Source: an uncultured Solirubrobacterales bacterium (GTDB taxonomy: Bacteria; Actinomycetota; Thermoleophilia; Solirubrobacterales; 70-9). Taken from it: 64,000 nt of DNA. Within the stretch, counting starts at the first letter, position 1; every line of letters starts with the position of its first letter. The notes beneath the pieces are model-generated. The model saw only the letters and a list, made by a program, of their open reading frames with translations. It was not told the DNA's origin and searched no databases. A program made the translations under genes and the position numbers. The stretch is from assembly GCA_963704505.1 (NCBI GenBank), contig OY969912.1, positions 2,294,927 to 2,358,926 on the forward strand. Direction: 5' to 3'. This document shows positions 39,087 through 47,138 of this stretch, piece after piece.

Positions 39087-39373
39087 TCCGTCAGGGCGTG
39101 GCGACCGCGGCCGTCGAGACGCGCGGTATGCGGAATCCGTAAAGGAACAGCTTTCTCATCGGGCAATTCTCCTGGTATCGGCAGAGGTTGAGCTCTGTGT
39201 TCACCAAGCCGGCGGCCGAGCCATCTCCGCTTTGGAGACCTCTTGCTTTGCGTCCCCGCCTCACGACGGGTTTGCCCTTGTTCAGCTGAGTACTTCTGCC
39301 CTAATCGGCACCGGCCGGCCGACCTTGATCGAACAAACGTCCAGATTCCCCGGATCTGGCCTTCTGTTGGGCG

Positions 39374-41807: not shown

Positions 41808-42605
41808 CTAGGGGGCGACCAGGAGGTCCGGCCCTTCTTCCGTGCCTTTGCCGACCTTGTTGAGCTTCGGGTTGGCCGGCGCCCCCTCCATGCGACCCGC
41901 GGCAAGCGGACCGCACATCTCGACCGCATCCTCAGCCGCCAGGTCCGGCCGCAGCCAGGCCGCCTCCGCCTCCGGGCTGCCGAGGATCACGGGCATCCGG
42001 TCGTGGACTTTGGCGACCACGTCGTTCGGCGTCGTCGTGACGATCGTGCAGGTGTAGAGCCAGCCGTCGTCGAACCCGCGGTCCTCCCCGTCATCCCACT
42101 CCTTGCGGGTGCAGAGGCCGGCGAAGGCGAAGGGCTCGCCGCCGTCGACGGTGAAGCGCCACGGCTGGCGCGGCTGCTTGGGGTCCTCGGCCTTCATCCA
42201 CTCGTAGAAGCCGTCGGCGACGATCAGACAGCGGTGGCGGAACTTGCCGACCAGCGGGCTGTAGGCGCGGCTGGAGGTGAGGTTCTCGGCTTTGGCGTTG
42301 ATCATCCGGTAGCCGACCTTGAGGTCCTTGGCCCAGCGCGGGACCAGGCCCCAGCGCATCAGGCGCGCCTCGCGCTCACCCCGAGCCGCCTCGTCGGTGT
42401 CGGGCGAGGAGCGCACGGTGAGGATCTCCTGGGTCGGGGCCACGTTGAAGCGCTCGAGGCCCTGGGCGACCTTCTTCGCGCGCTCCTTGGAGGGCGGCGG
42501 AGCCTCGCCCGCGGCGTTTCGCTCAAGCGCCTTCTCCAGCTCGACCTGGAACCGGTCGGCGATCTTCTTCGTGTCCTTCGTGGTGACCGTGAAGCGCCCG
42601 CACAT
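41808..42605 (-). CDS. yedK: SOS response-associated peptidase (SRAP/YedK family; abasic-site DNA-protein crosslinking)
   Basis: The true start MCGRF gives the catalytic Cys2. Conserved motifs are INAKAENL, FYEW and TIVTT. The 99-aa ORF-track extension is rejected. Confidence 0.88.
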   Translation of the reverse strand: MCGRFTVTTKDTKKIADRFQVELEKALERNAAGEAPPPSKERAKKVAQGLERFNVAPTQEILTVRSSPDTDEAARGEREARLMRWGLVPRWAKDLKVGYRMINAKAENLTSSRAYSPLVGKFRHRCLIVADGFYEWMKAEDPKQPRQPWRFTVDGGEPFAFAGLCTRKEWDDGEDRGFDDGWLYTCTIVTTTPNDVVAKVHDRMPVILGSPEAEAAWLRPDLAAEDAVEMCGPLAAGRMEGAPANPKLNKVGKGTEEGPDLLVAP

Positions 42606-42606
42606 C

Positions 42607-43572
42607 TCAGCTCCTCGCATCCGGGTTGTCGCGATACCACTCCAGCGTACGGCGCATGCCGTCGCGCAGATCGACCCCAGCCGTCCAGCCGGTCGCCTCG
42701 CGCAGCTTCGAGGAATCGACGAACTGGCGGTCGATCTCGCCCGCCGGGCTGCCGCTGCCCAGGTATTCGGGCTCGATCTCGCGGTCGCTGACCGCGGCGA
42801 TCGTGTCGAGCACCTCGGCGACCGAGTGCGGCCGCTCGCCGCCGGCGTTGAAGGCCTCCCCCGCCCCCGGCCCGCCGGCGCCCGTCGCCCCTTCGACCGC
42901 AAGGTAGGCGGCGACAGCGTCGTCGACGTAGAGGAAGTCGCGCTCGGGGCTGCCGTCGGAGCGGATCGCCGGGCGGCGGTCCTCGAGAACCGCCCGGATC
43001 GCCTCCGGGACCAGGCGCGAGTAGTTGAGGTCCCCTCCCCCGTAGACGTTGGCGAAGCGGGTCACGGCAACCGGCAGGCCGAAGGCCGGGCGGTAGCTGA
43101 GCGCGATCGCGTCGGCCGCCGCCTTGCTCGCCTCATAGGGAGACGCCGGGCGCAGCTGGGCGCCCTCGCGGTAGGGCAGCTCGTCCTGGGGACCGTAGGC
43201 CTTGTCGGAGGAGGCGACGACCACGGCGGGGACATCGGCGCGCCGGCAGGCCTCGAGCAGGACCCAGGTGCCGCGCACGTTGGCCTCGAAGGTCGCCGCG
43301 GGATCCTCCATCGCCGGGCCGACCAGGGTCTGCGCGGCGAGATGGAAGACCGAGTCGAACTCGCCCGCCGCCAGGGTCGCCCCGACCGCCTCGCCGTCAC
43401 GCACGTCGGCCTCGACCAGCTCGACCTCGGCCTCGATTCCCTGCAGGGAGAGCCCGGAGAGGGCGGTGCGCGGAAGATCGAGCACCGTCACCGTGTCGCC
43501 GCGACCGAGCAGGGCCCGGGCAAGGTGGGAGGCGATGAACCCGTGCCCGCCGGTGACCAGGGAGCGCTTCAC
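42607..43572 (-). CDS. NAD-dependent epimerase/dehydratase (extended SDR; NDP-sugar modifying)
   Basis: Rossmann motif VTGGHGFIASHL, catalytic YEASK, and ERDFLYVDD. The GTG start overlaps the upstream stop (GTGA). Confidence 0.88.
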   Translation of the reverse strand: MKRSLVTGGHGFIASHLARALLGRGDTVTVLDLPRTALSGLSLQGIEAEVELVEADVRDGEAVGATLAAGEFDSVFHLAAQTLVGPAMEDPAATFEANVRGTWVLLEACRRADVPAVVVASSDKAYGPQDELPYREGAQLRPASPYEASKAAADAIALSYRPAFGLPVAVTRFANVYGGGDLNYSRLVPEAIRAVLEDRRPAIRSDGSPERDFLYVDDAVAAYLAVEGATGAGGPGAGEAFNAGGERPHSVAEVLDTIAAVSDREIEPEYLGSGSPAGEIDRQFVDSSKLREATGWTAGVDLRDGMRRTLEWYRDNPDARS

Positions 43573-44318
43573 GGTGACCCGGCGGGGGACGGGGCCCAGG
43601 GATCCCAGGGTGCCTCCCCCGCGGCCCAGAGGTCGTCGAGGACGACGGCGTCCTTGTAGGTGTCCATGCAGTCCCAGAAGCCGGCGTGGCGATAGCCGCG
43701 GAGCTCGCCCGCGGCGGCGAGCCGGGCGAGCGGCTGGCGCTCGAGGACGCTCTGCTCGTCGAGGTAGTTGAAGACGCCCGGCTCGAAGCAGAAGAAGCCG
43801 CCGTTGATCCAGTGCTCGCTGCGTGGCTTCTCGACGAAGCCGTCGACCCGACCCTCCTCGTCCACCTCGGCCACCCCCCACTGCAGATGGGGCCGGACGA
43901 CGGTCATCGTCGCCAGGGCGCCCTCGTCACCGTGGAAGCCGAGCAGCCCGGCGAGGTCGACGTCGGCGACGCCGTCGGCATAGGTGGCGCAGAAGGGCTC
44001 CCCGCCGAGGCGCTCGGAGAGCTTGGCGATCCGCCCTCCGGTGGGCGTGTCGACGCCGGTGTCGACGCACTCGACCTCGATCGGCGTCGGCCAGTCCGCC
44101 TCGGCGACGAACCGCTCGACCATCTCCCCCAAATAGCCGGTCGCGAGCAGGAAGTGCTCGAACCCCTGCGCCGCATAGATCCCGATCACGTGCCAGAGGA
44201 TCGGCCGGCCGCCGATCTCGACCAGCGCCTTCGGCATCGTCTCGGTCCTCTCCCGCAGCCGCGTCCCGCGGCCCCCACAGAGGATTACGACCGGAGGCCT
44301 ACTGGCCAGGCCCGTCAA
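43569..44318 (-). CDS. rfbF: Sugar-1-phosphate nucleotidyltransferase, glucose-1-phosphate cytidylyltransferase (RfbF)-like
   Basis: VVILCGGRGTRLRERTETMPKALVEIGGRPILWHVIGIYAAQGF and WINGGFFCFEP are RfbF-like. The TTG start overlaps the MoaD-like stop (TTGA). Confidence 0.85.
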   Translation of the reverse strand: MTGLASRPPVVILCGGRGTRLRERTETMPKALVEIGGRPILWHVIGIYAAQGFEHFLLATGYLGEMVERFVAEADWPTPIEVECVDTGVDTPTGGRIAKLSERLGGEPFCATYADGVADVDLAGLLGFHGDEGALATMTVVRPHLQWGVAEVDEEGRVDGFVEKPRSEHWINGGFFCFEPGVFNYLDEQSVLERQPLARLAAAGELRGYRHAGFWDCMDTYKDAVVLDDLWAAGEAPWDPWAPSPAGSP

Positions 44319-44587
44319 CCCCCGGCGACGGCGGGCAGAATGGTCACCTCGTCGCCGTCGTTGATGTCGGTCTCGAGGCCCTGCTGGAAGCGGATGTCCT
44401 CGCCCTCGACGTAGACGTTGACGAAGCGGCGCAGGTCGCCGTCCTGGGTGATCCGCTCGCGGAGGTCGCCGTAGGTCTCGAAGACCGCGTCGAGAACCTC
44501 GCCGACGGTGCCGCCGGCGACCTCGACCTCGCCCTCGCCGCCCGTCGCGGCGCGGAGCTGGGTCGGGATCTTCACGGTGACACTCAT
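44315..44587 (-). CDS. MoaD/ThiS-family sulfur-carrier protein (C-terminal Gly-Gly)
   Basis: 90 aa with a beta-grasp-like sequence ending ...DGDEVTILPAVAGG-stop. ATGA overlap with the ThrC-like gene. Confidence 0.85.
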   Translation of the reverse strand: MSVTVKIPTQLRAATGGEGEVEVAGGTVGEVLDAVFETYGDLRERITQDGDLRRFVNVYVEGEDIRFQQGLETDINDGDEVTILPAVAGG

Positions 44588-45822
44588 CTGACCGCTACCT
44601 CCTGGGACTCGAACACGGACTGAAAGCTGTCGAGATCTGGGTCGATCTCGTGCATGTGGAATTTATCGCGGGTCGCGTCGAGGGTCTTCAGCCCCTCCCC
44701 GGTCAGGTAGACCACGACCCGTTCGCCGTCGTTCAGGTCGCCGCGTTCGGCGAGCTTGCGCAGGACGCCGACGGTCACCCCGCCGGCGGTCTCGGTGAAG
44801 ATCCCGGTGGTCTCGGCCAGCAGCCGGATCGCGTCGCGGATCTCGTCGTCGTCAACCGAGTCGATGCTCCCTTCGGTGCGGCGCGCGTGCTCGACCGCGT
44901 AGGGGCCGTCGGCAGGGTCGCCGATCGCCAGGCTTTTGGCGATCGTGTCGGGCTTCTGCGGCTTGCAGACGTCGGTGCCATCCGCGAAGGCGGTCGCGAC
45001 CGGGCTGCAGCCCTGGGCCTGGGCGCCGTTGAAGACCGGCTGGACGCCCTCGACCAGGCCGATGTCCAGCCACTCCTGGAAGCCCCGCCCCAGTTTCGTG
45101 AACAACGACCCGGAGGCGATCGGGCAGACGACGCGGTCGGGTAGCTCCCAGCCGAGCTGCTCGACGGTCTCATAGGCGAGCGTCTTCGAGCCCTCGGCGT
45201 AATACGGGCGCAGGTTGACGTTGACGAAGGCCCAGGGGTGGGTGTCGGCGAGCTGCGTGCAGAGCCGGTTGACGTCGTCGTAATTGCCCCGCACGCCGAC
45301 CAGGTTGGTGCCGTAGACGGCGGTCGCGAGCAGCTTCTGCTCCTCCAGATTGGCCGGGACGAATACGTAGGAGTCCAGGCCGGCGGCGGCCGCGTGGGCG
45401 GCGACCGCGTTGGCGAGGTTGCCGGTCGAGGCGCAGGCGACGGTGTCGTAGCCGAGCTCCTGCGCCTTGGCGACGGCGACCGCGACGACCCTGTCCTTGA
45501 ACGAGTGGGTCGGGTTTGCCGCGTCGTTCTTGATCCAGAGCTCCGCCTCGATCCCGAGCCGCTCGGCGAGCCGGTCGGCCCGCAGCAGGGGCGTCAACCC
45601 CGGCTCGAGCGGGTCGCCCGGCCGGCCCTCGAAGGGCAGGAAGTCGGCATAGCGCCAGATTCCCTGCGAGCCCGCCTGGATCCGCCGCTTGGCCTCAGCC
45701 GGTTCGAGCCCGGAATGGTCGTAGTGGACCTCGAGTGGCCCGAAGCACTTCTCACAGAAATAGTGGGCGCCGAGCTCGTAGGCGGTGCCGCACTCCTTAC
45801 ATCTCAAGCTGTCGATTGACAT
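44584..45822 (-). CDS. Threonine synthase-like PLP enzyme with an N-terminal Zn-ribbon
   Basis: CKECGTAYELGAHYFCEKC is a four-Cys ribbon. PLP-lysine motif NPTHSFKDR, plus ASTGN. The true ATG is at 45820-45822, preceded by a GGAAAGGA Shine-Dalgarno. The ORF-track start at 45981 runs through the riboswitch. Confidence 0.9.
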   Translation of the reverse strand: MSIDSLRCKECGTAYELGAHYFCEKCFGPLEVHYDHSGLEPAEAKRRIQAGSQGIWRYADFLPFEGRPGDPLEPGLTPLLRADRLAERLGIEAELWIKNDAANPTHSFKDRVVAVAVAKAQELGYDTVACASTGNLANAVAAHAAAAGLDSYVFVPANLEEQKLLATAVYGTNLVGVRGNYDDVNRLCTQLADTHPWAFVNVNLRPYYAEGSKTLAYETVEQLGWELPDRVVCPIASGSLFTKLGRGFQEWLDIGLVEGVQPVFNGAQAQGCSPVATAFADGTDVCKPQKPDTIAKSLAIGDPADGPYAVEHARRTEGSIDSVDDDEIRDAIRLLAETTGIFTETAGGVTVGVLRKLAERGDLNDGERVVVYLTGEGLKTLDATRDKFHMHEIDPDLDSFQSVFESQEVAVR

Positions 45823-45839
45823 CCGATCGAATCCTTTCC

Positions 45840-45877
45840 AAAACAGAAAAACCTCCGCCAAACTGTGGGGCAGAGGT
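45840..45877 (-). terminator. Intrinsic terminator forming the expression platform of the SAM-I riboswitch
   Basis: The minus strand reads ACCUCUGCC-CCACAGUUU-GGCGGAGGU followed by UUUUCUGUUUU. The loop and 5' arm (CCCCACA) can alternatively pair with the 3' strand of P1 (UGUGGGG), forming an anti-terminator. Confidence 0.75.
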
Positions 45878-45892
45878 CCGATCGGACATTCC

Positions 45893-46012
45893 CCACATCT
45901 TCCAGGCCCTGAACTGCTCGACCTGCTGGAGTTGGCACCTGTTCCGGACCTCTCGGTCCGACGTGGTTGCCGGGGCTTCACTGGGCCAGTCCCTCCACCC
46001 CTCTAGATGTGG
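45893..46012 (-). promoter_or_regulatory. SAM-I (S-box) riboswitch aptamer
   Basis: The minus strand reads CCACAUCUAGAGGGGUGGAGGGACUGGCCCAGUGAAGCCCCGGCAACC...CAGGUGCCAACUCCAGCAGG...CCUGGAAGAUGUGG. It matches the conserved SAM-I core (AGAG.GGUGGAGGGACUGGCCC..UGAA.CC.GGCAACC ... GGUGCCAA.UCC.GCAG ... GAAAGAUG). The P1 helix is 8 bp (CCACAUCU/AGAUGUGG). Confidence 0.9.
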
Positions 46013-46127
46013 CGCTTATGTGCAGGGGATCCTACCAGGGGCGAATTCCTTCAGTTTCGGCACCCGCCTGCGTTTAACCTAAGGCTGCCGATGCCCGACG
46101 AGACCGACACACAGATGAGCGCGAGCG

Positions 46128-47138
46128 ATGCCGAACCTGCCGAAGCCAAGGCTGCGCCGTCTTTCGGGACGCCGCGGCGAGCTCATCCACTCGGCTCAAC
46201 AGGCTGAGCCGCAGAAGCCCGACGTCGAGCAGATCGACGCCGCCGGCCTCCGCTGGGTGAACATCGAGCATCCCGGTGCCCTGGAGCGCGCCTGGCTCGA
46301 GGAGAACTTCGACTTCCACGCGCTCGACCTCGAGGACGTGCTCTCGCGCAACCAGCGGCCGAAGATCGACGTCTACGACGACTACCTCTTCATCGTCCTC
46401 CACTTCCCCGTCTTCGACCGCGCCGCCGGTCGCCTGGGCACCGGCGAGCTCGACGTCTTCGTCGGCCCCGGCTACCTCGTCACGATCCCGAACCAGCCGT
46501 TGCAGCCGGTCGAGTACCTGTTCGAGCGCTGCCGGGCGAAAGAGGAGATGCGCGACCAGCTCTTCACCCGCGGCTCGGGATACCTGCTCTACCGCCTGGT
46601 CGACGACAGCTTCGACTACTGCTTCCCGATGCTGCGCAAGATCGGCAACAAACTCGACGCGCTCGAGGACGACATCTTCGAGGGCCGCTCGGAGGAAGTC
46701 GTGCGTGACATCTCCAACGTCAAGCAGGAGATCATCAACTTCCGCAAAGTCATCCGCCCGCAGCGCCCCGTCCTCCAGGAACTCGAGAAAGTCAAGCAGC
46801 GCTACCTGGCGCCCGACCTCGACCTCGAGATCTACTTCGACGACATCGTCGACGCCCACGAGCGGATCTGGGACATGCTCGAGAACTACAAGGAGGTGGT
46901 CGAGGCGCTCGCAGAGACCAACGAGTCGGTGATCTCCCACCGTGTCAACGACATCCTGCGCGTGCTGACCTCGATCAGCGTCATCGTCCTCCCCCTCACC
47001 CTGATCGCCAGCATCTGGGGCATGAACTCCCACGTGCCGGGCGAGCAGAGCACCACCGGGTTCTGGATCGTGATCGGCTGCATGGCCGCGATCCTGATCG
47101 CGATGGTCGCCTACTTCCGCCGCCGCGGCTGGCTCTGA
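46128..47138 (+). CDS. corA: CorA-family magnesium/cobalt transporter
   Basis: Cytoplasmic domain plus two C-terminal TM helices with the GMN motif (IWGMNSHVPGE). Confidence 0.9.
   Translation: MPNLPKPRLRRLSGRRGELIHSAQQAEPQKPDVEQIDAAGLRWVNIEHPGALERAWLEENFDFHALDLEDVLSRNQRPKIDVYDDYLFIVLHFPVFDRAAGRLGTGELDVFVGPGYLVTIPNQPLQPVEYLFERCRAKEEMRDQLFTRGSGYLLYRLVDDSFDYCFPMLRKIGNKLDALEDDIFEGRSEEVVRDISNVKQEIINFRKVIRPQRPVLQELEKVKQRYLAPDLDLEIYFDDIVDAHERIWDMLENYKEVVEALAETNESVISHRVNDILRVLTSISVIVLPLTLIASIWGMNSHVPGEQSTTGFWIVIGCMAAILIAMVAYFRRRGWL

What the first reader, a model, noticed from the sequence alone, without database searches (positions are those of the whole stretch)
45840..46012. Unannotated SAM-I riboswitch with an OFF-type terminator, hidden inside an over-extended ORF
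Seen directly: reverse-complementing 45893-46012 gives a leader that carries the conserved SAM-I core almost base for base (GGUGGAGGGACUGGCCC, GUGAAGCCCCGGCAACC, GGUGCCAACUCCAGCAGG, GGAAGAUG). It closes with an 8-bp P1 helix (CCACAUCU/AGAUGUGG).

The 3' strand of P1 (UGUGGGG) can alternatively pair with CCCCACA, which sits in the 5' part of a 9-bp terminator hairpin. A U-rich tract follows that hairpin at 45840-45877. This is the classical SAM-bound = terminate architecture.

The six-frame ORF 44584..45981 reads straight through this RNA, so a pure ORF-based annotation would both miss the riboswitch and mis-start the gene. The element assigns the downstream operon to sulfur/methionine/SAM metabolism independently of protein homology.
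Basis: partly seen in the sequence, partly recalled or inferred. Interest (0 to 1): 0.6.

Follow-up and report, generated by a model that had tools for sequence, protein, structure and literature searches.

The report
SAM-I riboswitch before metM–metO operon
This is a genuine but ordinary SAM-sensing RNA switch that most likely stops transcription of a two-gene operon for the methionine precursor homocysteine when SAM is plentiful; the one unusual feature is a predicted second lock that hides the start codon.

Summary
Rfam's SAM-I model (RF00162) matches window 45892-46013 (minus strand) over its full length at 79.5 bits (gathering score 44.4). It is the only SAM-I element in this 3.09 Mb Solirubrobacterales genome.

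Covariation across six families of the order supports all of them.

The switch precedes a ThrC-like PLP enzyme (412 aa, ATG 45822) and a GG-tailed MoaD/ThiS carrier. This is the MetM/MetO homocysteine route described in Streptomyces in 2024. The genome has a separate thrC-thrB pair. MetA, MetX, MetB/C/Y/Z and MetE were not found.

Two claims weaken. Public gene calls already use the correct 412-aa start, and "unannotated" cannot be tested here.

This scan has already logged the same riboswitch-MetM/MetO link in at least 110 other genomes, and on this same window.

New here: a helix that encloses the terminator pairs GUCCGAUCG (45887-45879) with CGAUCGGAU (45829-45821, covering the AU of the AUG). 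Other families keep this pairing with different sequences. It suggests two-tier control (transcription plus translation), which is predicted, not shown.

Verdict: a new member of a known kind, of low interest.

The parts
46029..46037 (-). Candidate promoter: extended -10 element TGgTAGGAT. The predicted transcription start is about 7 nt downstream, just before the conserved leader start ACATAAGCGCC.
   Evidence: Seen in the sequence. TGGTAnnnT and the following ACATAAGCGCC are conserved in 64 genus-level leaders while the flanks vary. The promoter role is an inference; no transcript data were available.
45892..46013 (-). SAM-I (S-box) aptamer, a four-way junction P1-P4. P1 is 46012-46005 paired with 45900-45893.
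   Evidence: RF00162 at 79.5 bits vs gathering score 44.4, full model. The MFE fold reproduces P1-P4. Both-side changes occur in 3 P1 pairs, 1 P2 pair and 4 P4 pairs across 31 leaders.
45864..45897 (-). Antiterminator: UGUGGGG (45897-45891, the 3' strand of P1) pairs with CCCCACA (45870-45864). It encloses the local hairpin GUCC-GAUC-GGAC (45887-45876).
   Evidence: Fold with the antiterminator enforced. Swap test over 12 representatives: own pairs -13.0 vs swapped -9.3 kcal/mol, 0 of 20,000 permutations reached the observed value.
45851..45877 (-). Intrinsic terminator hairpin ACCUCUGCC / GGCGGAGGU, 9 bp (10 with a closing G-U), 9-nt loop.
   Evidence: -15.5 kcal/mol. 94% of cells are paired, and 5 of 9 pairs show changes on both sides, in 31 leaders.
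45840..45850 (-). U-tract UUUUCUGUUUU after the terminator stem.
   Evidence: A run of at least 4 U follows the hairpin in 27 of 31 related leaders.
45879..45887 (-). Anti-start segment GUCCGAUCG, the 5' strand of a long-range helix that encloses the terminator.
   Evidence: 9-bp duplex with 45829-45821 at -15.5 kcal/mol. It is part of the MFE of the full leader. Only 0.32% of random 26-nt genome windows pair as well. Swap test -12.9 vs -7.5 kcal/mol, 0 of 20,000 permutations.
45821..45829 (-). Start-region strand CGAUCGGAU (positions -7 to +2 of the AUG at 45822-45820), the 3' strand of the long-range helix.
   Evidence: GATCGGATG is near-invariant in the genus while the spacer upstream varies. 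There are two compensated variants (CCGACC/GGUCGG, CCGGCC/GGUCGG) and one uncompensated variant shared by three leaders.
45832..45839 (-). Shine-Dalgarno-like GGAAAGGA, 9 nt upstream of the AUG.
   Evidence: Sequence. Purine-rich boxes occupy the same place in relatives.
44584..45822 (-). metM-like gene: ThrC-family PLP enzyme, 412 aa, with an N-terminal CxxC...CxxC zinc-ribbon-like segment. Candidate O-phosphohomoserine-dependent homocysteine synthase.
   Evidence: TIGR00260 281 bits, PALP 247 bits. The start is set by homology beginning at residue 1 in all 30 related loci and by the public gene call. It is distinct from the thrC next to thrB.
44315..44587 (-). metO-like gene: 90-aa MoaD/ThiS-family sulfur-carrier protein ending in Gly-Gly. 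Its start overlaps the metM stop (ATGA).
   Evidence: SAMP1/MoaD family, 73.6 and 61.7 bits; ThiS, 60.3 bits. It follows the metM homologue in 28 of the 30 order-level loci (L002 ends inside metM, L025 gave no hit) and in 89 of 90 further loci.
45823..45981 (-). Spurious in-frame 53-codon ORF extension (GTG 45981) that overlaps the riboswitch.
   Evidence: One search lists the ORF. No homology extends upstream of residue 1. The 465-aa product is not on record.

Best explanation
Window 46013-45840 (minus strand) is the 5' leader of a metM-metO operon. It holds a canonical SAM-I riboswitch with OFF logic.

High SAM: SAM stabilises the four-way junction and closes P1 (46012-46005 with 45900-45893). 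The 3' strand of P1 is then unavailable, the terminator hairpin (45877-45851) forms, and RNA polymerase releases the transcript at the U-tract (45850-45840).

Low SAM: the 3' strand of P1 pairs with CCCCACA (45870-45864) instead. Together with the local hairpin GUCC-GAUC-GGAC, this occupies both ends of the terminator's 5' arm. Transcription then continues into metM (a ThrC-like homocysteine synthase) and metO (a thiocarboxylate sulfur carrier).

Second tier (inferred): in any transcript that passes the terminator while P1 is closed, the freed segment GUCCGAUCG (45887-45879) pairs with CGAUCGGAU (45829-45821). That buries the AU of the start codon and the 7 nt before it, and blocks initiation.

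This is the only SAM-I element found in the genome, and no alternative homocysteine route was found. The switch therefore probably gates de novo methionine synthesis as a whole.

Shown here: aptamer family membership, the helices with their covariation, and gene identities at family level. Inferred: SAM binding, termination, the translational tier, the promoter, and the enzyme activities.
For: Aptamer: RF00162 at 79.5 bits vs 44.4, full length. It is the only match in the own genome.

Conservation: 39 of 41 genomes of the same order have the element; the two without are 51% and 73% complete. All 30 fetched loci place it directly upstream of the P0001 homologue, and a P0002 homologue follows in 28 of them.

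Structure: 91% of cells are paired against 34-48% for slid controls, and 20 pairs show both-side changes (8.6 in shuffles, 0 of 500 shuffles as high). This includes 5 terminator pairs.

Antiterminator: own pairing -13.0 vs swapped -9.3 kcal/mol.

Terminator: about -15.5 kcal/mol plus a U-tract, one of only 3 such sites in 128 kb of sequence counting both strands.

Nested helix: it appears in the full-leader MFE and recurs with different sequences in other families. Swap test: -12.9 vs -7.5 kcal/mol, 0 of 20,000 permutations reached it. Random-window control: 0.32%.

Operon function: ThrC-family enzyme plus a GG-tailed ThiS/MoaD carrier. A separate thrC lies adjacent to thrB. No full-length Cys/Met-gamma enzyme, MetX, MetA or MetE was found. 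MetH, one Prok-JAB (Mec-like) and one ThiF (MoeZ-like) are present.

Literature: MetM, MetO, Mec and MoeZ are listed with experimental evidence in PMC13759103. S. albulus metM is stated to have an upstream SAM riboswitch in PMC12172450.

Phylum level: 80 of 151 Actinomycetota genomes carry SAM-I, and 16 of the 29 best loci have a P0001-like gene downstream.
Against: Nearest-neighbour energies favour P1 + terminator over the antiterminator even without ligand: -72.1 vs -66.2 kcal/mol to the U-tract, and -86.0 vs -78.8 for the full leader. The ON state therefore needs kinetic control, or a ligand-free junction weaker than the model assumes.

The antiterminator has only 7 contiguous pairs and overlaps just 2 nt of the terminator stem.

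The whole-leader MFE is not unusual compared with shuffles (z = -1.4).

For the nested helix, within-genus evidence is mixed: two compensated variants and one uncompensated variant shared by three leaders. The 5' strand is part of a palindrome, so conservation could also reflect the local hairpin.

Confidence: 0.88

Rival explanations
1. The element is a SAM-I riboswitch, but it acts mainly on translation. The long-range helix that hides the start region is the real effector, and the hairpin plus U-tract terminates poorly in this high-GC actinobacterium.
For: The SD/start-sequestering helix is present in all six families, whereas four leaders (L015, L017, L024, L026) lack a U-run of 4 or more. 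More distant actinobacterial metM leaders (L142-L147) show no U-tract at all. Barrick & Breaker 2007 report that translational control is frequent in Actinobacteria (PMC2258182).
Against: 27 of 31 leaders, including this one, keep a strong GC-rich hairpin followed directly by 5-7 U. Such sites are very rare in this genome (3 in 128 kb counting both strands). The terminator stem covaries. The antiterminator competes with the terminator, not with the start helix.
Confidence: 0.1
2. The aptamer is a decayed or chance match, or it senses a ligand other than SAM, with no regulatory role.
For: None beyond the unremarkable MFE z-score.
Against: The score is 35 bits above the gathering score and every strongly conserved core position matches. 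The element is conserved with covariation across 11 genera. It always precedes a methionine-pathway operon.
Confidence: 0.01
3. The switch also controls the sugar-nucleotide genes P0003/P0004 (glucose-1-phosphate cytidylyltransferase-like and 4,6-dehydratase-like). They would form one SAM-regulated transcription unit with metM-metO.
For: In this window the TTG start of P0003 overlaps the metO stop (GGTTGA), with no room for a terminator. P0003/P0004 homologues follow metO on the same strand in 78 of 80 genus loci and in some other families.
Against: The gap between metO and P0003 varies from -16 to more than 1,000 nt. In four of the eight out-of-genus loci with enough flank, neither gene follows metO. 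There is no functional logic for SAM-repressed CDP-sugar synthesis. An earlier follow-up on this window read the arrangement as tight packing of unrelated modules.
Confidence: 0.3

Closest known systems
SAM-I / S-box riboswitches of Bacillota (e.g. Bacillus subtilis yitJ and metE leaders; Rfam RF00162)
   Same: Same aptamer family (full-length model match), same four-way junction, same OFF logic with a P1 / antiterminator / terminator trade-off, and the same kind of regulon (methionine and sulfur genes).
   Different: The host is an uncultured Solirubrobacterales actinobacterium. The regulated genes are metM-metO rather than metE, metI/C or yitJ. The antiterminator overlaps mostly the terminator loop. 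An additional helix encloses the terminator.
SAM riboswitch upstream of metM in Streptomyces albulus (Hasebe et al. 2024, Appl Environ Microbiol 90:e01247-24; cited in PMC12172450 and PMC13759103)
   Same: A SAM riboswitch precedes a ThrC-like homocysteine synthase, with a ThiS-like carrier MetO in the pathway. Mec-like and MoeZ-like genes lie elsewhere in the genome.
   Different: The primary paper was not available, so neither sequence identity to S. albulus MetM nor its expression platform could be compared. More distant actinobacterial metM leaders examined here often lack a U-tract.
Dual expression platforms (Barrick & Breaker 2007, PMC2258182): a terminator whose 3' arm contains the RBS
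   Same: One ligand-binding event is predicted to repress both transcription elongation and, for read-through RNA, translation initiation.
   Different: Here the RBS and start codon lie 12-28 nt beyond the terminator stem and are not part of it. They are instead paired by a separate segment upstream of the terminator, so the terminator is nested inside the sequestering helix. The published distance criterion (10 nt or less) is not met.
Xanthomonas campestris SAM-I riboswitch of the met operon (PMC7270179)
   Same: A SAM-I aptamer reported to control a methionine-synthesis operon at the translational level.
   Different: That element is described as primarily translational and as also sensing uncharged initiator tRNA. 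Nothing here suggests a second input.

Membership tests
SAM-I riboswitch (Rfam RF00162, clan CL00012) | Covariance-model score at or above the curated gathering score, over the full model | tested here: met
   79.5 bits vs 44.4, model positions 1-108 of 108, E 4.7e-17. It is the only clan member kept in a permissive rescan. The tool does not report the separate SAM-IV and SAM-I/IV scores.
SAM-I riboswitch (Rfam RF00162, clan CL00012) | Four-way junction P1-P4 maintained by compensatory changes | tested here: met
   Searches give the fold. P1 94% paired with 3 covarying pairs, P2 100%, proximal P3 100% (invariant), P4 99% with 4 covarying pairs. Distal P3 is only about 60% paired because MAFFT misaligns a stem of variable length.
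SAM-I riboswitch (Rfam RF00162, clan CL00012) | Conserved core: kink-turn nucleotides in P2 and a pseudoknot between the P2 loop (CUGG) and J3/4 (CCAG) | tested here: met
   All upper-case consensus positions match in the cmscan alignment. GGGA-TGGCCC and TCCA are invariant in 31 of 31 leaders, so the complementarity is kept but there is no covariation to prove it. Tertiary structure is not testable here.
SAM-I riboswitch (Rfam RF00162, clan CL00012) | Binds SAM and discriminates against SAH | not testable with these tools
   Needs in-line probing, ITC or equilibrium dialysis.
SAM-I riboswitch (Rfam RF00162, clan CL00012) | Located in the 5' leader of methionine, SAM or sulfur metabolism genes, with an expression platform of mutually exclusive helices | tested here: met
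MetM/MetO homocysteine pathway (Hasebe et al. 2024) | A ThrC-family PLP enzyme that is a paralogue of, and additional to, the housekeeping threonine synthase | tested here: met
   Three TIGR00260 hits score above the cut-off. One (303.6 bits) is adjacent to thrB. P0001 is 41% identical to it over 341 aa.
MetM/MetO homocysteine pathway (Hasebe et al. 2024) | An adjacent small ThiS/MoaD-fold carrier with a C-terminal Gly-Gly | tested here: met
   P0002 is 90 aa and ends ...AVAGG. ThiS 60.3 bits, MoaD family 61.7 bits.
MetM/MetO homocysteine pathway (Hasebe et al. 2024) | Carrier-loading and supply enzymes (MoeZ-like E1, Mec-like JAMM protease, homoserine kinase) present in the genome | tested here: met
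   One ThiF hit (265.6 bits, 393-aa frame), one Prok-JAB hit (87.2 bits) and thrB (206.5 bits). These are family-level assignments only.
MetM/MetO homocysteine pathway (Hasebe et al. 2024) | Catalytic activity: O-phosphohomoserine + MetO-thiocarboxylate gives homocysteine | not testable with these tools
   Indirect support only. No full-length MetA, MetX, MetB/C/Y/Z or MetE was found in a single-contig genome rated 93% complete, while MetH is present.
MetM/MetO homocysteine pathway (Hasebe et al. 2024) | Close sequence relationship to the characterised S. albulus MetM (A0A059WBP2) | not tested
Dual expression platform sensu Barrick & Breaker 2007 | RBS inside the 3' arm of the terminator, or a start codon within 10 nt of the terminator | tested here: not met
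   The terminator stem ends at 45851, the SD is at 45839-45832 and the AUG at 45822, so 28 nt lie between stem and start codon. The element may work like a dual platform but has a different geometry.

The most novel reading that the evidence does not exclude
The expression platform is a nested two-tier switch that is conserved across the order Solirubrobacterales. The intrinsic terminator sits inside a long-range helix whose 5' strand is locked away in the antiterminator when SAM is low. When SAM is high, that strand is freed to bury the SD or start codon of any transcript that escapes termination. This geometry differs from the published 'RBS inside the terminator arm' dual platforms. It would make the switch tighter than termination alone, for what appears to be the organism's only homocysteine route.
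Probability: 0.5. Interest if true: 0.35.

Novelty: new member of a known kind. Interest (0 to 1): 0.2.

Why it matters
The practical value is for annotation. The switch marks a gene that family models name 'threonine synthase' (TIGR00260) as a methionine-pathway enzyme (MetM). It also fixes the start codon of that gene.

In this lineage it appears to be the only SAM-I sensor and to gate the only homocysteine route found. It is therefore probably the main control point of methionine synthesis in a widespread group of uncultured soil actinobacteria.

The riboswitch class has been known for over two decades. Its link to metM has been published, and this scan has logged it in more than 100 genomes, so the finding changes no open question.

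The nested terminator / start-sequestering helix is a small, testable addition to the catalogue of expression-platform designs.

Tried and rejected
- The consensus promoter/terminator scan on 45500-46500 found nothing. The 9-nt loop exceeds its limit, so the terminator was verified by folding and by a custom scan instead.
- The primary MetM/MetO paper (PMC11497804) is not held. The pathway is cited through PMC13759103 and PMC12172450.
- PMC12452182 contained nothing on SAM riboswitches upstream of thrC-like genes in Actinomycetota.
- The MAFFT alignment is unreliable for distal P3 and for the spacer between the terminator and the AUG across families. Alignment-free swap tests were therefore used for the antiterminator and the nested helix, rather than pair counts.
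- The whole-leader MFE z-score is uninformative in this 65% GC sequence.
- Thermodynamic comparison of the ON and OFF folds does not favour the ON fold. It is recorded as a caveat, not as support.
- The idea that the 53-codon N-terminal extension is real was rejected.
- Separate SAM-IV and SAM-I/IV scores could not be obtained, because the tool keeps only the best family of a clan.
- 28 of 80 genus leaders were not parsed by the motif heuristics.

Full report
OBSERVATION. The four SAM-I core motifs are present. P1 is CCACAUCU (46012-46005) paired with AGAUGUGG (45900-45893). The 3' strand of P1 (UGUGGGG, 45897-45891) is complementary to CCCCACA (45870-45864). A hairpin ACCUCUGCC / GGCGGAGGU (45877-45869 / 45859-45851, 9-nt loop) is followed by UUUUCUGUUUU (45850-45840).

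Infernal against Rfam 15 gives RF00162 (SAM) at 45892-46013, minus strand, 79.5 bits against a gathering score of 44.4, E 4.7e-17, covering model positions 1-108 of 108. A permissive rescan of 45780-46080 finds no competing family. The tool keeps only the best member of a clan, so separate SAM-IV and SAM-I/IV scores cannot be quoted. The consensus terminator scan reported nothing because it allows loops of 3-8 nt. A custom scan shows that a perfect 8-bp stem followed by at least 6 U in 9 nt occurs only three times on both strands of the 64-kb window, and one of these is this site.

ORGANISM AND CONSERVATION. The window lies in a single-contig 3.09 Mb genome (93% complete by marker genes) that carries exactly one SAM-I element. 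The closest public relatives of the downstream protein are soil metagenome-assembled genomes labelled Solirubrobacterales (Thermoleophilia, Actinomycetota).

RF00162 is found in 39 of 41 genomes sampled from the same order. The two without a match are only 51% and 73% complete. In all 30 loci fetched (11 genera, 6 families) the aptamer lies directly upstream of a homologue of the same protein, and a homologue of the small carrier protein follows in 28 of them. Across the phylum, 80 of 151 sampled genomes carry SAM-I, and 16 of the 29 best-scoring loci have a 50-75% identical homologue immediately downstream.

STRUCTURE AND COVARIATION. An alignment of 31 leaders was scored against the OFF-state structure (aptamer plus terminator).
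- 91% of cells are paired, against 34-48% when partners are slid by 1-3 columns.
- 20 pairs change on both sides, against 8.6 in shuffles; no shuffle out of 500 reached the observed value.
- Both-side changes occur in 3 pairs of P1, 1 of P2, 4 of P4 and 5 of the 9 terminator pairs.
- Distal P3 scores poorly only because MAFFT misaligns a stem of variable length.

The antiterminator was tested without an alignment. Each leader's P1 3' strand pairs better with its own terminator 5' arm and loop than with those of other families (-13.0 vs -9.3 kcal/mol; none of 20,000 permutations reached it). Clear sequence switches are visible, such as GUGUG/CACAC, GUGACG/CGUCAC and GGGUC/GACCC. A U-run of at least 4 follows the hairpin in 27 of 31 leaders.

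WHAT IT CONTROLS. The gene after the leader starts at ATG 45822, preceded by GGAAAGGA nine nt upstream, and encodes a 412-aa ThrC-family PLP enzyme (TIGR00260 281 bits; PALP 247 bits). Its stop overlaps the start (ATGA) of a 90-aa MoaD/ThiS-family protein that ends in Gly-Gly.

The rest of the genome gives this picture:
- A second thrC (303.6 bits) lies directly next to thrB and is therefore the housekeeping threonine synthase. P0001 is only 41% identical to it.
- No full-length Cys/Met-gamma-family enzyme (MetB/C/Y/Z), MetX, MetA or MetE was found.
- MetH, a single Prok-JAB (Mec-like) protein and a single ThiF-family E1 in a 393-aa frame (MoeZ-like) are present.

This is the component list of the MetM/MetO route. 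GapMind 2026 lists those components as experimentally supported in Streptomyces (PMC13759103). PMC12172450 states that S. albulus metM has an upstream SAM riboswitch. Both cite Hasebe et al. 2024, which was not available to read. The enzyme activities are inferred.

THE OVER-EXTENDED ORF. The six-frame ORF 44584..45981 exists and is an in-frame 53-codon extension. Homology in all 30 relatives begins at residue 1 of the 412-aa form. The exact 412-aa sequence is already the gene call on record for this contig, and the 465-aa form is not on record. The worry about a mis-started gene therefore applies only to naive ORF listing. Whether the riboswitch is annotated in the public record cannot be determined here.

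MECHANISM. The best-supported model is classical: SAM closes P1, the terminator forms and transcription stops.

Two details qualify it. First, the antiterminator overlaps only the last two nucleotides of the terminator's 5' arm plus five loop nucleotides. The local hairpin GUCC-GAUC-GGAC (45887-45876) inside the antiterminator takes up the first two nucleotides of that arm, so together they leave only 5 nt free. Second, nearest-neighbour energies favour P1 + terminator even without ligand (-72.1 vs -66.2 kcal/mol up to the U-tract). The ON state must therefore be kinetic, or must depend on the unliganded junction being less stable than the model assumes. Barrick & Breaker 2007 (PMC2258182) describe kinetic control in some riboswitches, but it is untested here.

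The minimum-free-energy fold of the full leader contains a 9-bp helix between GUCCGAUCG (45887-45879, between P1 and the terminator) and CGAUCGGAU (45829-45821, positions -7 to +2 of the AUG). The terminator is nested inside this helix.
- GATCGGATG is nearly invariant in the genus, while the spacer just upstream of it is highly variable.
- In the other five families the equivalent segment pairs with the SD itself, using unrelated sequences: CCCUUCA/UGAAGGG, GAAGCCUCG/CGAGGUUUC, GUCCACC/GGUGGAC and GGUCC..UCCCA/UGGGA..GGACC.
- A swap test over 11 representatives gives -12.9 kcal/mol for own pairs against -7.5 for swapped pairs; none of 20,000 permutations reached it.
- Only 0.32% of random 26-nt windows of this genome pair as well with the 13-nt segment.
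- Within the genus there are two compensated variants (CCGACC/GGUCGG, CCGGCC/GGUCGG) and one uncompensated variant shared by three leaders.

The most economical reading is a second tier of repression. Read-through RNA with P1 closed has its start region sequestered, whereas in the antiterminator state the anti-start segment is locked in the local hairpin. This resembles the 'dual expression platforms' of Barrick & Breaker 2007. It does not meet their definition, because the RBS is not in the terminator arm and the AUG lies 28 nt beyond the stem. I put this reading at about 50-55%. It is prediction only. The same energy caveat applies: the full-leader OFF fold is -86.0 against -78.8 kcal/mol with the antiterminator enforced.

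PROMOTER AND OPERON END. An extended -10 (TGgTAGGAT, 46037-46029) and the leader start ACATAAGCGCC are conserved in 64 genus-level sequences; the promoter role is inferred. Downstream, the TTG start of a glucose-1-phosphate cytidylyltransferase-like gene overlaps the metO stop (GGTTGA), leaving no room for a terminator. In relatives the gap ranges from -16 to more than 1,000 nt. Four of the eight out-of-genus loci with enough flank lack these sugar genes after metO. Co-regulation is therefore possible in this genome but is not a conserved feature.

COMPARISON AND VERDICT. The element is a member of SAM-I by every criterion that can be tested in silico. The regulated operon fits MetM/MetO at family and context level. 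Earlier notes of this scan reached the same reading of the operon on this window. They have also logged SAM-I in front of MetM/MetO in at least 110 other genomes. The finding is correct but ordinary: a new member of a known kind. The nested start-sequestering helix is a modest, testable refinement.

Noticed in passing
window 39208-39286 (-) and 39091-39158 (-): A c-di-GMP-I riboswitch (RF01051, 53.4 bits vs gathering score 35). The only thing following it on its own strand is a 22-aa ORF (MRKLFLYGFRIPRVSTAAVATP, with SD GGAG 9 nt upstream). It then runs head-on into the 3' end (39086) of a + strand 382-aa secreted Big_13-like protein gene. It may control a micro-ORF or an antisense RNA.
   Followed up: partly
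window 43569-44318 (-) and 42607-43881 (-): Genes resembling glucose-1-phosphate cytidylyltransferase and NDP-sugar 4,6-dehydratase sit flush against metO; the TTG start overlaps the metO stop. They follow metO in 78 of 80 genus loci with very variable gaps, and are absent after metO in four of the eight out-of-genus loci with enough flank.
   Followed up: partly
window 46074-46079 and 46128-47138 (+): A divergent corA gene (TIGR00383, 216 bits). The genus-conserved AGGTTA on the minus strand reads TAACCT on the plus strand, a plausible -10 for corA. The 114-bp intergenic region therefore appears to hold two back-to-back promoters.
   Followed up: partly
G000:C1:2475093-2476079 (-), outside the window: A third ThrC-family paralogue (231.5 bits), with an N-terminal CxxC...CxxC zinc-ribbon-like segment like that of P0001 and 42% identity to it. 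Its function and context were not examined.
   Followed up: no
G000:C1:2737538-2746160 (-), outside the window: The single Prok-JAB (Mec-like) gene, a PALP/CysM-like hit (2742127-2742435) and the single ThiF/MoeZ-like gene lie within 9 kb of each other. This resembles the mycobacterial CysO-CysM-Mec neighbourhood and is the likely source of carrier loading for MetO.
   Followed up: no
loci L015, L017, L024 (family f4) and L026 (family f6): These related metM leaders keep the aptamer, the antiterminator-like pairing and the SD-sequestering helix, but they lack a U-run of 4 or more after the hairpin. This suggests a purely translational platform in those families.
   Followed up: partly
window 41808-42902 (-): An SRAP/YedK-family gene (196 bits) lies at the end of the same-strand gene array that begins with the riboswitch.
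   Followed up: no
window 44315-45822 (-): No NIL-domain gene accompanies metM-metO here. Earlier notes of this scan report a NIL-domain gene next to the MetM/MetO pair in several other phyla.
   Followed up: no
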